A DNA stretch of 57,943 nt, from IMG/VR virus record IMGVR_UViG_643348545_000013, positions 1 through 57,943 of that record. One strand, written 5' to 3'. Each line of letters begins with the position of its first letter. Position 1 is the first letter of the stretch. This stretch comes from a virus (lineage: Duplodnaviria; Heunggongvirae; Uroviricota; Caudoviricetes). Of the stretch, positions 33,001 to 36,000 are shown one piece after another. A program made the position numbers.

Positions 33001-36000
33001 CATTTTTCCAGCGAGGCGATACATTATTCCGTTCTCCAACAAAAACAGCCGGAAATCGGTTTCTTTGATACCGAGTAACTTAGCAACTTCCCGGAATCCC
33101 ATCAGACCAGATGCTTCAACATAGTTATCAACAAATTCAGCCTTCGGCGCTGCTATTGCCAGTTGATTTTCCAGCACTGCTTTCTGTTCAGCCAGTTTTG
33201 CCGCAAATCGCAACGCCTCAGGTAAAGTCCGGGGGATCTGAATACCATGCATCGCTTTGAGTCTTGCCAGCACAGAACGACGAACGGCCTTTGACTCCCT
33301 CATGCCAACGAGCATCATCTGGTCAAAATCCAGATCATAGTATGCCGTTCTTGTCTGGTTATTGTTTAACCGGAATTTTTTTCCGGTTCCATCAAGCTCT
33401 AGCTCATCCTCAATTTTTGCAAGAAACTTACGCGGTTCATGAGGGACTTCTCCGGCTTCTGCCCGGGCTGGATTAATAATGTTATTCAGAAAATCCAGAC
33501 TACTCATGGATATTTCATGATCGACAGAAATCATCTCTTTCATGGTTGATTCCTTTTAGTGATGAACCCTGCGCACAGGAATAACCAGCCCAAAGAGGGT
33601 TAACCAGACCACTGCCGGTTATCCACCAGGGCTCATCCTGAAAGGTTCTTTGGTTTATTTACGCTTGTGCGAAGCGCAGAAATGACAAAGGCACCATTAC
33701 GGTGCCTCTGCGTGAAATAATGTTCCTGACTTTATTCACTTACATTTTGCCAGCTCGCAGGATTTCGTGTTATCCGCCCGCGTGAGCAAGCGTCATTTTT
33801 CAGCAAAATATTCTGCTTATCTGTCGATTCCCCAGCACGCCAGCGCGCTCTCCTGGTCTCGCCGGGATACCTGACCGTAACAGTTATTTGAGCGAATACG
33901 GCAGTCCCTGCCACCGTCCTTAATCCACCAGCGAATCGCCTCACATGCTCCCCTGCGATCACCAGCATTAATTCGTTTATAAAACGTCGACGGGAAACAC
34001 TTACCGGGACCAATGTTGTACGGACAGAATGACGCGATCCCCGCTTTCTGGGGTTCGGTCAGCGGCACTCTGATGTTTTTCTCCACCCACGCCAGCGCTT
34101 TATCACGCTCAATGGCGTTAACCCGGTCGCATTTTCCCTTCGACAGCTTCATGCCAGGAATAACAGGCTTACCATCCACCCGGGTGGCTCCACGGCAGAT
34201 GGTCCAGATCCCCGCACCATCACGGTATGCCATGGTGTGGTTACCTTCTTTTTCGTCAAGAAACTGGTCGAGGATTTCAGGCGCAGACGCCCCTGCACCA
34301 ATCAGCGCCAGAACGGCAGCCGACAGGCCGTATCTGATTTTTGCGTTCATGGATATTTATCAGGATTTATCGGTTCCGAATCCCTGGATATGTTAAGTCT
34401 TCAGCCCGCCAGTGGTGGGCACTGGCGTAAACTCAACAATGCGAGATGGCTGCCTCGCAAAGATAATCAAAGCAATGGATGCACTAAGTAAAAATAACGC
34501 TGTGTCAGATTACCTGATCGCCGAAATGGAACATCTAATTAAAGAAATACCAAAGACAGTTGCTCGTGATGATAAAAGATTCCTCAAGGCTGCTGAAGAT
34601 GCTCTTTCAACAGTGAAGCGCAGCTTAGATGCGCCGCGCGATCAAGAATAGTTTCTTTCATTTCATCTGCTGCAAGCACCTCATTTTTTGTTGGGGTGCT
34701 TTTTTTCAATTCAGCGATATAGCACTCCAGTTTTTCAATGCGTGATTCAATATCATCGTTTTCTGACCGCAATGCCGTCGGTGGCGTCTTCAGAGAACCA
34801 GTAATTATTCCCGGTAGTTTTCCTCTGTAGGTTATCAACACATCCTGCGCCTCTAAAATTATGGGGCGCTTTTCCGGCGACTGCTCATCCCCTTCACATA
34901 AAGCGGCAGCAATATCCATGAAAAACTGCTTCGCCTGTTTTTTCGCCTCAGCTTCGTAAAACTCCAGCGTGGCACCTTCAGTACGGTCAAGACTAATCGC
35001 CACATATGGCAACAACAGTGACGGATACCCACCAATTTCCAGTGCCACAGTAGCAGTAATCTTATCCGGGTAATTATTTATCCCTTTAACAACCAGTTTG
35101 TATTGTTTATTCATCGCCTTACTCTCCCCGCGCTGCCTTACGACGGTCCTCTCTGATTTTGAAATACAGGTTAGTCAGATATGTCAGCAGCCCAAACAGC
35201 AGACTCCCCAGCACGCCTATTGCCGCCCACTGAGACGGGGAAACCCTGTCCAGCAACTGCAGGAACCAGTAGCCCGTTCCCACCGCTGACGTGGTGTATG
35301 ACACACCTGTTGTGATTTTTTCCATCTGGTACATACCCCGTCTCCCGTACTCGGAAGCTCACAACAACAAAAGGGCCACCAGCTCTTTACTGATGGCCCT
35401 GCCCCGCCGTTACAGCATTGTGCCCGGTTCGGGTTGTGTGTCTGTCATATCCGTCACCGGTGGCTCCGGCTGAATATCACCATTTTCCGTGGTGACATCT
35501 TCCGCCTGTGGTTCCGGAAGCAGTTCCGGGGATGGTTCCGGCTGTGCACCAAGCAATTCATCCAGAATGGCATCCACTTCTGCATCAAGACGCGCCTCAA
35601 GGTTCTGCCGAAGTTGCTGTTTCAGTGCGCTCCGGACTTCTTCAGAGCGCAGGACTTCCTTCACTGCCTCAGCAGTGACCAGCGATTTTATTTCTGACAT
35701 AGGATTTTCTCGTTGAAAGGGGTTATTAAGAAGGTTGTTCCGGAATGAGTGGGGCTTCTGTTTTTGCTCCGGCTGACTGACTGGCGCTGATTTTCTCTGC
35801 GGCCCTTTTATCAATCTGCCTGCGCCAGAAATCGCGCACTGCCCTGTACCCACCCGAAAGAAGATACAGCACGCATACCACCGTACAGAAGTACAGCATC
35901 ACCTGATGAACAAATGTCATAGTTTCTTACCGTTATGGTTGACAATGAGAACTGTTTTCATTTAAAAAACCGATATACGAAAGCATCTTTTCTTTACATT

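What the first reader, a model, noticed from the sequence alone, without database searches (positions are those of the whole stretch)
34412..35114. Extra 176-aa gene inserted between pinholin and SAR endolysin, with a convergent overlapping small ORF
In phage 21-type cassettes the holin is followed directly by the endolysin. Here a 176-aa ORF with its own RBS starts 4 nt after the holin stop, and a 79-aa plus-strand ORF (34412-34651) converges on and overlaps its 3' end. Neither has a recognisable family. Genes embedded in the lysis cassette are candidates for lysis-timing regulators or exclusion factors.
Basis: partly seen in the sequence, partly recalled or inferred. Interest (0 to 1): 0.45.

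Follow-up and report, generated by a model that had tools for sequence, protein, structure and literature searches.

The report
Common YdfR gene plus broken moron
The "extra" gene between the holin and the endolysin is an ordinary YdfR-family (DUF1327) prophage gene found in about half of complete E. coli genomes, and the small ORF that overlaps it on the other strand is a copy of a real small phage gene that has lost its start through a 100-bp deletion.

Summary
The 176-aa ORF (34584-35114, minus) is a YdfR/DUF1327 protein (PF07041, E 2.7e-40). It sits where K-12 Qin has essQ-ydfR-rrrQ, and its N-terminal DNA matches 2894 of 5426 complete E. coli genomes. The commonest form of the family is 114-116 aa; this copy has a 64-residue helical tail. 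The only experimental data come from K-12 YdfR, whose residues 1-72 bind the catalytic half of RNase E and which co-purifies with RNA. That region is the conserved core here (42% identity).

The 79-codon plus-strand ORF belongs to phrog_18136. Intact 85-91-aa copies have an AAGGA RBS, an ATG and pN/pS of about 0.2. They are followed by a terminator hairpin with compensatory substitutions, and they also occur in an unrelated phage context, so the unit behaves as a moron. The window copy carries an exact 100-nt deletion between 9-bp repeats. The deletion removed the RBS, the ATG and the family's most conserved motif, so this copy is most likely dead. The last ~41 YdfR codons are read from the antisense strand of this cassette. 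Overall the finding is ordinary, with one modest curiosity.

The parts
35119..35334 (-). Phage-21-type class II holin (71 aa), immediately upstream of ydfR
   Evidence: PF04971 E 9e-33. phrog_9876/phrog_20 holin. Maximum KD 1.70 at residues 36-54.
35122..35129 (-). Shine-Dalgarno-like GGGGAGAG inside the holin 3' end, 7-9 nt upstream of the ydfR ATG. The holin stop TAA is at 35119-35121.
   Evidence: Read directly.
34584..35114 (-). YdfR-family (DUF1327) gene, 176 aa plus stop
   Evidence: PF07041 E 2.7e-40. phrog_2091 E 2.6e-79. Homologues are named 'YdfR family protein'. Identical DNA in NZ_AP045172 is annotated YdfR family.
34893..35114 (-). Conserved N-terminal core (codons 1-74). The predicted fold is three beta strands followed by a long helix. 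It is homologous to the RNase E-binding region of K-12 YdfR.
   Evidence: BLASTP against K-12 YdfR: 42% identity over residues 1-74, E 5e-20. AF2 pLDDT is about 70-87 for most of residues 11-70. PMC13232886 maps RNase E binding to residues 1-72. pN/pS is about 0.4 with synonymous sites saturated, against distant copies.
34584..34778 (-). Variable C-terminal tail (codons 113-176), absent from the commonest 114-116-aa family members
   Evidence: Alignments. The BP-4795 base form ends LKTPPLA*. AF2 predicts helices with pLDDT 65-70.
34584..34707 (-). Last ~41 YdfR codons, read from the antisense strand of the plus-strand cassette (its ORF 3' end, spacer and terminator)
   Evidence: Homology between L004 and the ydfR-free context L030 runs to just past the terminator T-run. 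In L017 a 1-nt loss in the T-run frameshifts this tail, while the plus ORF stays intact.
34351..34457 (+). Conserved leader of the plus-strand cassette, containing the palindrome CGCCAGTG-GTGGG-CACTGGCG (34407-34427). It is shared with the intact cassette, with PhiR5_1's different cassette, and (about 70% identical) with the second context.
   Evidence: Alignments. Folds. The scan found no sigma-70 consensus.
34458..34466 (+). Deletion junction: a single copy of the 9-bp repeat CAAAGATAA. Intact copies have two, exactly 100 nt apart.
   Evidence: L004 repeats at 2983 and 3083; the window has one, at 34458.
34412..34651 (+). 79-codon ORF: a 5'-truncated remnant of a phrog_18136 small gene. It lacks the native RBS, the ATG and the first 27 codons, which include the RIFTLELQVGF motif.
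   Evidence: phrog_18136 E 5.4e-41, covering only profile positions 18-87. Alignments. pN/pS 0.21 in this frame for intact copies.
34674..34708 (+). Intrinsic-terminator-like hairpin (10-bp stem, then T7), 23 nt after the plus-ORF stop and embedded in the ydfR coding sequence
   Evidence: Scan. The hairpin is conserved in 8 variants, with compensatory pair changes at three stem positions.
33817..34350 (-). Phage lysozyme with an N-terminal Gly/Ala-rich hydrophobic (SAR-like) segment
   Evidence: PF00959 E 2.5e-23. phrog_7 endolysin. Maximum KD 1.67 at residues 9-27.

Best explanation
The 176-aa ORF is a normal member of the YdfR/DUF1327 family. This is the accessory gene that E. coli and Shigella lambdoid prophages routinely carry between a phage-21-type holin and the lysozyme.

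It lies in the Q-dependent late operon (inferred from gene order). It is probably translationally coupled to the holin, because its start is 4 nt after the holin stop and the SD lies inside the holin 3' end.

Its conserved part is an N-terminal core of about 75 residues (three beta strands, then a helix). By homology with K-12 YdfR, this core most likely binds the catalytic N-terminal half of RNase E and/or RNA. The gene would then act on host or phage RNA decay late in infection rather than on the holin-endolysin machinery. This functional step is inference, with about one chance in three of being right.

The 64-residue tail is not a family feature. Relative to the 114-aa base form, a segment of about 390 nt was inserted just after codon 112. 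Part of that segment is an autonomous, reverse-oriented small-gene cassette (leader, RBS, 85-91-aa ORF, terminator). The YdfR reading frame simply continues through the antisense strand of the cassette's terminator and 3' end.

In this window the cassette has lost 100 nt by deletion between two CAAAGATAA repeats. That removed its RBS, its ATG and its most conserved motif.
For: Family and position:
- PF07041 at 136.9 bits and PHROG hits.
- All homologues listed are named YdfR family or DUF1327, and the organisms named are Escherichia or Shigella.
- The same gene order is annotated in K-12 Qin, BP-4795, PhiR5_1 and NZ_AP045172.
- 2894 of 5426 complete genomes match.

Late-operon context:
- NinG, Q, a SASA esterase, DUF1378, DUF826, the holin, ydfR, the lysozyme and Ant are all on the minus strand.

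Function lead:
- K-12 YdfR residues 1-72 bind Rne1-597 in a two-hybrid assay. Strep-YdfR co-purifies Rne1-598 and DNase-resistant nucleic acid (PMC13232886).
- The window protein is 42% identical to K-12 YdfR over exactly residues 1-74.
- This is also the confidently modelled part.

Tail:
- Family lengths are 114/116/176/183/211/296/305 aa, with a common break after LKTPP.
- Comparison with BP-4795 shows the insertion.

Cassette:
- The intact ORF is kept in copies only 73% identical, with an AAGGA RBS.
- pN/pS is 0.21, substitutions fall 12/7/27 by codon position, and every other frame contains stops.
- Distant members share the RIFTLELQVGF motif.
- The terminator shows compensatory changes.
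- The cassette occurs between glycosyltransferase-like genes in unrelated phage contigs. In FSL SP-016 that slot holds a different insert.

Deletion:
- It is exactly 100 nt and flanked by 9-bp repeats.
- The same allele is present in L023-L026.
- RefSeq annotates a hypothetical protein on intact copies and nothing on a deleted allele.
Against: - RNase E and RNA binding were shown only for the K-12 protein, which is 42% identical. That work relied on over-expression, found little transcriptome effect, and its authors could not exclude a contaminant carrying the RNA.
- No promoter consensus was found for the cassette, so its autonomy rests on the terminator, the RBS and the second context.
- The direction of transfer between the two contexts is unresolved. 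The second-context copy also carries a sequence resembling the lysozyme-proximal leader.
- The 176-aa tail frame is kept open in five diverged copies, so a function for the tail is not excluded. pN/pS in the tail is inconclusive because there are too few sites.
- A low level of translation of the truncated ORF from ATG 34439 or GTG 34412 cannot be ruled out from sequence alone.
Confidence: 0.7

Rival explanations
1. The 176-aa protein is a lysis-timing regulator (antiholin-like or endolysin-modulating accessory) acting directly on the pinholin or the SAR endolysin.
For: - It is embedded between the holin and the endolysin, with a start 4 nt after the holin stop.
- The position is conserved across thousands of prophages.
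- PMC13232886 cites a genetic screen that links K-12 ydfR to envelope integrity.
Against: - It has no membrane or signal segment (maximum KD 1.29, against 1.70 for the holin).
- K-12 YdfR is listed as cytoplasmic, and its over-expression gave no growth defect.
- The interaction data that exist are with RNase E.
- One locus (L004) has ydfR downstream of a 90-aa ORF that carries no PF04971 hit, in place of the phage-21-type holin.
Confidence: 0.15
2. The 176-aa ORF is a degenerate pseudogene, which is how PGAP treats the identical DNA ('incomplete, missing C-terminus').
For: - The RefSeq annotation of NZ_AP045172 marks only the first 114 codons and flags the gene as pseudo.
- The last ~41 codons are antisense to another unit.
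- One relative (L017) has this tail frameshifted.
Against: - The whole DUF1327 domain is intact and matches 92 of the 93 Pfam profile positions.
- 176-aa forms with the same tail occur at 70-93% identity and are named YdfR family protein in RefSeq.
- The commonest family members consist of the N-domain alone, so losing or changing the tail need not inactivate the protein.
Confidence: 0.08
3. The plus-strand ORF in this window still makes a functional small protein (70-79 aa), for example an exclusion or immunity factor expressed from the lysogen.
For: - The frame is open for 79 codons.
- The cassette leader and terminator are retained.
- The deletion allele recurs in several contigs and protein clusters, so it is not a sequencing error.
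Against: - There is no SD before either candidate start.
- The deleted 27 codons include the LFDRIFTLELQVGFL block, which holds 10 of the family's 20 invariant alignment columns.
- GTG 34412 lies inside the leader palindrome stem.
- RefSeq calls no gene on the deleted allele.
- There are no PADLOC or Pfam hits above threshold.
Confidence: 0.07
4. The apparent plus-strand gene family is an artefact: a frame kept open only because it lies antisense to the YdfR tail coding sequence.
For: The last 22 codons do overlap ydfR. In 211-aa ydfR forms, only this 3' fragment is present.
Against: - About three quarters of the ORF lies outside ydfR. There it shows pN/pS of 0.21 with a third-position excess, and the other five frames are closed.
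- It is intact where no ydfR exists.
- Distant homologues exist.
Confidence: 0.02

Closest known systems
YdfR of the E. coli K-12 Qin cryptic prophage (P76160; Pfam PF07041 DUF1327)
   Same: - Same Pfam family.
- Same position between an S21-type holin (essQ) and the lysozyme (rrrQ).
- 42% identity over residues 1-74, the segment reported to bind RNase E.
   Different: - K-12 YdfR is 103 aa. It has an unrelated short C-terminus, and its stop overlaps the rrrQ start.
- The window protein has the additional conserved segment 75-112 and a 64-residue tail.
- It is separated from the lysozyme gene by 233 nt that hold a cassette remnant.
Base-form YdfR of Stx-type phages such as BP-4795 ORF47 (114 aa)
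   Same: The DNA is about 90% identical across holin, ydfR N-domain and lysozyme. The domain is identical up to LKTPP.
   Different: The base form stops 2 codons after LKTPP, about 50 nt from the lysozyme start. The window has an insertion of about 390 nt (290 nt after its own 100-nt deletion) at that point.
Phage morons (autonomous promoter-gene-terminator units inserted between conserved phage genes; concept of Hendrix and colleagues, cited from general knowledge)
   Same: - The plus-strand unit has its own RBS, ORF and a terminator with covariation.
- It sits between genes that are adjacent in related phages.
- It occurs in two unrelated slots.
   Different: - No promoter could be recognised.
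- It is oriented against the late operon.
- Its terminator and 3' end are overprinted by the ydfR reading frame.
- In this window it is truncated.
phiKZ Dip (gp37) and T7 gp0.7, phage proteins that target RNase E (cited from general knowledge)
   Different: - There is no sequence similarity, and the fold match is too weak to carry weight.
- From general knowledge, Dip binds the C-terminal scaffold of RNase E, whereas YdfR was reported to bind the N-terminal catalytic half.

Membership tests
YdfR / DUF1327 (PF07041) | Match to the Pfam model above its gathering score | tested here: met
   136.9 bits against a cut-off of 25, profile positions 1-92 of 93.
YdfR / DUF1327 (PF07041) | Location between the holin and the lysozyme of a lambdoid lysis cassette | tested here: met
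   The order is the same in K-12 Qin, BP-4795 and PhiR5_1.
YdfR / DUF1327 (PF07041) | Homology to K-12 YdfR residues 1-72 (the reported RNase E-binding segment) | tested here: met
   BLASTP: 31/74 identical, E 5e-20.
YdfR / DUF1327 (PF07041) | Physical binding to the RNase E N-terminal half, and RNA co-purification | not testable with these tools
   Reported only for K-12 YdfR (PMC13232886).
Phage-21-type pinholin / SAR-endolysin cassette (context) | Class II holin of the S21 family, and a lysozyme with an N-terminal weakly hydrophobic signal-anchor-release segment | tested here: met
   - PF04971 and PF00959.
- Hydropathy maxima of 1.70 (holin residues 36-54) and 1.67 (lysozyme residues 9-27).
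- Release from the membrane itself cannot be tested here.
phrog_18136 small protein family (plus-strand ORF) | Match to the family profile | tested here: met
   E 5.4e-41, but only profile positions 18-87 of 87 are covered. The intact P0126 covers positions 3-87.
phrog_18136 small protein family (plus-strand ORF) | Conserved N-terminal motif LF.RI.TLEL.VGF | tested here: not met
   The motif is deleted in the window copy. It is invariant in all seven diverse members aligned.
phrog_18136 small protein family (plus-strand ORF) | Own AAGGA RBS and ATG start | tested here: not met
   Present in L004, L008, L016 and L030 (L017 and L018 have AATGA). Removed here by the 100-nt deletion.
Moron (autonomous transcription unit) | Intrinsic terminator downstream of the ORF | tested here: met
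   The hairpin plus T-run at 34674-34708 is conserved, with compensatory changes at three stem positions.
Moron (autonomous transcription unit) | Own promoter | tested here: inconclusive
   A conserved leader of about 100 nt with a palindrome is present, but the scan found no sigma-70 consensus.
Moron (autonomous transcription unit) | Presence or absence between genes that are otherwise adjacent, and occurrence in unrelated contexts | tested here: met
   - Absent in BP-4795.
- Present in L003-L022.
- Present between glycosyltransferase-like genes in L027-L032.
Antiholins / membrane-acting lysis regulators | Transmembrane or periplasmic domain able to contact the holin or endolysin | tested here: not met
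   The maximum 19-residue Kyte-Doolittle mean is 1.29, with no TM-grade segment. K-12 YdfR is classed as cytoplasmic.
Known anti-phage defence or exclusion systems (PADLOC) | Match to any PADLOC model | tested here: not met
   Only chance-level hits, E >= 0.007.

The most novel reading that the evidence does not exclude
The ydfR-lysozyme junction may be a dedicated slot for autonomous, reverse-oriented small-gene cassettes. At least two unrelated families occupy it (phrog_18136 and phrog_2572), and they share one palindromic leader.

The cassette terminators and antisense strands would be recruited as new C-terminal extensions of YdfR. This would explain the modular tails of the family.

When intact, the cassettes would be expressed from the lysogen, producing a small protein and an RNA antisense to the late lysis transcript. 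That could modulate endolysin expression, lysis timing or superinfection.
Probability: 0.2. Interest if true: 0.5.

Novelty: already known. Interest (0 to 1): 0.22.

Why it matters
It matters little for this window. The gene is a routine, already annotated prophage gene, and the small ORF is a broken copy.

There is some wider value. YdfR is among the commonest uncharacterised genes in E. coli lysis cassettes, and a 2026 study links its conserved core to RNase E. A role in RNA decay at the time of lysis is therefore now testable.

The locus also gives a clean example of how a phage protein acquires a new C-terminal tail by reading into the antisense strand of an inserted moron, and of how short direct repeats then erode that moron.

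Tried and rejected
- NCBIfam gave no hit for either ORF.
- PADLOC gave only chance-level hits.
- A PDB sequence search with a YdfR profile gave nothing significant. The best hit was E 0.014 to a PARP1 BRCT segment, matching only the low-complexity tail.
- Foldseek against BFVD gave nothing at E <= 0.001. The afdb50 library was unavailable.
- Rfam at E <= 1 gave only sub-threshold chance hits.
- The sigma-70 promoter scan found nothing upstream of the plus ORF in the window or in an intact copy.
- A scan of GTDB species-representative genomes for the small-protein family found no relative. A profile scan of IMG/VR recovered only loci already found.
- The 1.84-billion-protein representative library holds only 7 relatives of the small protein, so its function could not be inferred by homology.
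- pN/pS on the YdfR tail was inconclusive because there are too few substitutions.
- I considered that the minus strand downstream of the YdfR stop might encode the missing EEKRRDEQFAAF... module of the 211-aa forms after a frameshift. Three-frame translation shows it does not.
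Full report
**What is at the coordinates**

The ORF list and sequence confirm the following genes on the minus strand:
- a 71-aa ORF at 35119-35334;
- a 176-aa ORF at 34584-35114;
- a 233-nt gap;
- a 177-aa ORF at 33817-34350.

Pfam identifies the outer two as a phage-21 holin S (PF04971, E 9e-33) and a phage lysozyme (PF00959, E 2.5e-23). Both have hydrophobic segments of transmembrane or SAR grade.

The 176-aa ATG lies 4 nt after the holin stop and is preceded by GGGGAGAG-TAA-GGCG. A 79-codon GTG ORF on the plus strand (34412-34651) converges on the 176-aa ORF and overlaps it by 68 nt. 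The physical description is therefore correct.

The surrounding genes are all on the minus strand: NinG, a Q antiterminator, a TerB-like protein, a SASA-family esterase, DUF1378 and DUF826 upstream, and an Ant/KilAC gene downstream. This places the locus in the late operon of a lambdoid prophage.

**The 176-aa gene is a YdfR-family gene, and its position is the normal one**

In fact:
- It matches PF07041 (DUF1327) at 136.9 bits against a cut-off of 25, and three PHROG families.
- All listed homologues carry PF07041. Those that have a source name are called YdfR family, DUF1327 domain-containing, or generic phage/hypothetical protein. The organisms named are Escherichia or Shigella.
- The order holin-ydfR-lysozyme is annotated in K-12 Qin as essQ-ydfR-rrrQ, in phage BP-4795, in PhiR5_1, and on 100% identical DNA in E. 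coli JNEC-KY176.
- DNA of the N-terminal part matches 2894 of 5426 complete E. coli genomes. Only 45 genomes match the full length.

It is therefore not an unusual insertion into a phage-21 cassette. It is the standard occupant of this position in E. coli prophages.

**Anatomy of the protein**

Alignments show a conserved domain that ends at LKTPP (residue 112). After that point the family breaks into forms of 114/116 aa (the most populous clusters), 176, 183, 211, 246, 296 and 305 aa, built from shuffled tail modules.

Homology to K-12 YdfR (103 aa) covers only residues 1-74 (42% identity, E 5e-20).

AlphaFold models are of modest quality overall (mean pLDDT 59 for the full length and 67 for residues 1-112). 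Both agree on a three-stranded sheet followed by a long helix for residues 5-73, with pLDDT of about 70-87 for most of residues 11-70. Residues 75-112 are uncertain, and the tail is helical.

Against distant copies the core shows pN/pS of about 0.4, with synonymous sites saturated (pS about 0.8). This indicates a real gene under purifying selection.

The protein has no membrane-grade hydrophobic segment.

**What it probably does**

The literature held here contains one functional study of the family (PMC13232886, RNA Biol 2026). It reports that:
- K-12 YdfR was recovered in a two-hybrid screen;
- its first 72 residues suffice to bind the N-terminal catalytic half of RNase E;
- Strep-YdfR co-purifies Rne1-598 and DNase-resistant nucleic acid;
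- over-expression changes few transcripts and does not impair growth.

The interacting segment coincides with the conserved, confidently modelled core of the window protein.

My best reading is that this is a cytoplasmic late protein, translationally coupled to the holin, whose core contacts RNase E and/or RNA. That step is inferred from a 42%-identical relative, and I give it about one chance in three. A direct role in holin or endolysin timing is not excluded, but no data support it.

**The plus-strand ORF is a broken copy of a real gene**

The ORF matches phrog_18136. Its closest database relatives are 91-aa proteins seen on many E. coli contigs. They begin MSEENSKENTALFDRIFTLELQVGFLLP, where the window ORF has unrelated residues.

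DNA alignment with four intact loci shows that the window lacks exactly 100 nt. Intact copies carry CAAAGATAA twice, 100 nt apart; the window has one copy, at 34458. The deletion removed:
- the AAGGA Shine-Dalgarno sequence;
- the ATG;
- 27 codons.

The remaining frame stays open only because it fuses to a short upstream frame. Neither GTG 34412 nor ATG 34439 has an SD, and GTG 34412 lies inside a leader hairpin stem.

The same deletion allele is present in four IMG/VR contigs. RefSeq annotates a hypothetical protein on intact copies and nothing on a deleted allele, and nothing on the identical JNEC-KY176 DNA.

**The intact gene is genuine**

- Copies only 73% identical keep an 85-aa ORF and an AAGGA-N6-ATG start.
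- Over the 174 nt that do not overlap ydfR, L004 against L030 shows 46 substitutions distributed 12/7/27 by codon position. pN/pS is 0.21 in this frame. All five other frames contain stops.
- A profile search of 1.84 billion representative proteins finds only seven relatives. Three are below 50% identity and share the N-terminal motif RI(F/I)TLEL(Q/K)VGF. This is exactly the part missing from the window copy.
- No family, defence-system or structural annotation exists for it.

**The gene behaves as an autonomous cassette**

A hairpin plus T7 run lies on the plus strand at 34674-34708, 23 nt after the stop. It is conserved in all eight variants examined, with compensatory changes at three stem positions: C-G to T-A in L008, A-T to G-C in L030, and C-G to T-A in L027.

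The cassette also occurs in IMG/VR contigs (L027-L032) that have no holin, ydfR or lysozyme nearby. There it sits between a 196-aa gene and a 445-aa gene that match phage genes annotated as glycosyltransferases. Homology with the lysis-cassette copies runs from about 10 nt beyond the lysozyme start codon to just past the terminator T-run. In Salmonella phage FSL SP-016 that second slot holds a different insert.

PhiR5_1 shares the first ~87 nt of the leader, including the palindrome CGCCAGTG-GTGGG-CACTGGCG. It then carries an unrelated 86-aa reverse ORF (phrog_2572) with a GAGGTGA RBS, which also overlaps the end of its 211-aa ydfR.

No sigma-70 consensus was found in the leader, so promoter activity is unproven.

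About 43 of 5426 complete genomes carry most of the cassette. 397 carry some part of it: either the lysozyme-proximal leader or the 3' fragment that is embedded in 211-aa ydfR forms.

**Origin of the YdfR tail**

In BP-4795, YdfR ends LKTPPLA*, about 50 nt from the lysozyme start. In the window and in intact-cassette loci, a segment of about 390 nt (290 nt here) is inserted at that point, with GGTGG-containing short repeats at both junctions.

The last ~41 codons of the 176-aa ORF (34584-34707) coincide with the antisense strand of the cassette's ORF end, spacer and terminator. In L017, loss of one T from the terminator T-run frameshifts the YdfR tail while the plus ORF stays intact.

This suggests the tail arose, at least in part, by read-through into an inserted moron. 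It would explain PGAP's 'missing C-terminus' flag on identical DNA.

I cannot say whether the tail has acquired a function. The frame is kept open in five diverged copies, but there are too few substitutions for a test. The direction in which the cassette moved between its two contexts is also unresolved.

**Verdict**

- The 176-aa gene is a known, annotated and very common family member.
- The plus ORF is an inactivated remnant.

Two things are mildly interesting. First, a ubiquitous lysis-cassette gene now has a testable RNase E connection. Second, the ydfR-lysozyme junction hosts reverse-oriented small-gene cassettes that are overprinted by YdfR tails. Neither is specific to this window.

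Noticed in passing
window 35372-35400 (minus strand): A strong terminator-like hairpin (12-bp stem, 7 GC pairs, then a T-rich run) lies between the DUF826 gene and the holin, inside the late operon. It would need Q-mediated antitermination to be read through.
   Followed up: no
L008 3735-4388 and L011 1247-1900 (minus strand): Some prophages carry an extra 217-aa ORF between the holin and ydfR. It matches positions 117-296 of phrog_1085, the C-terminal module of the 296-aa YdfR forms. YdfR tail modules therefore also exist as separate genes.
   Followed up: partly
L002 (PhiR5_1) 2763-3023, plus strand: A different 86-aa reverse-oriented ORF (phrog_2572, GAGGTGA RBS) occupies the same ydfR-lysozyme slot. 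It shares the first ~87 nt of leader with the window's cassette, and the record annotates it as 'DUF1823 containing protein'. Pfam gave no hit for it.
   Followed up: partly
L004 2964-3008 (intact cassette); the corresponding ATG in the window is at 34439: In intact cassettes a 14-codon upstream ORF (MRDGCLAKIRNRYE*) starts at the conserved ATG and ends with a TGA that overlaps the main ORF's second and third codons. In the window the 100-nt deletion fuses it in frame to the truncated gene (read).
   Followed up: no
window 34893-35114 compared with L004 and L056: Between close relatives the YdfR core shows about as many or more non-synonymous than synonymous changes. Against L004 the counts are 13 and 3 (pN/pS 1.24), with the amino-acid changes falling mainly in the N-terminal ~37 residues. 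Against distant relatives pN/pS is about 0.4. This could reflect diversifying selection, but the counts are small.
   Followed up: no
L004 3771-4043 (minus strand): In one locus, ydfR with the intact cassette sits downstream of a 90-aa ORF with no PF04971 hit, in place of the phage-21-type holin (ORF). In that locus, therefore, ydfR lies downstream of something other than an S21-type holin.
   Followed up: no
window 32848-33543, 41000-41728 and 41797-42510 (minus strand): The window holds three antirepressor-type genes: Ant/KilAC just downstream of the lysozyme, a second ANT/Rha-like gene, and a P22 AR-like ORF6N gene next to NinG.
   Followed up: no
window 39095-39598 (minus strand): A TerB-domain protein (PF05099, E 9.9e-16) is encoded between the Q antiterminator and the SASA esterase. 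No tRNA genes were found anywhere in the window.
   Followed up: no
window 35980-36054 (plus strand): A weak similarity to the EHEC sRNA Esr41 (23 bits against a gathering score of 102, E 0.29) lies just upstream of the DUF1378 gene. It is far below threshold and probably chance.
   Followed up: no
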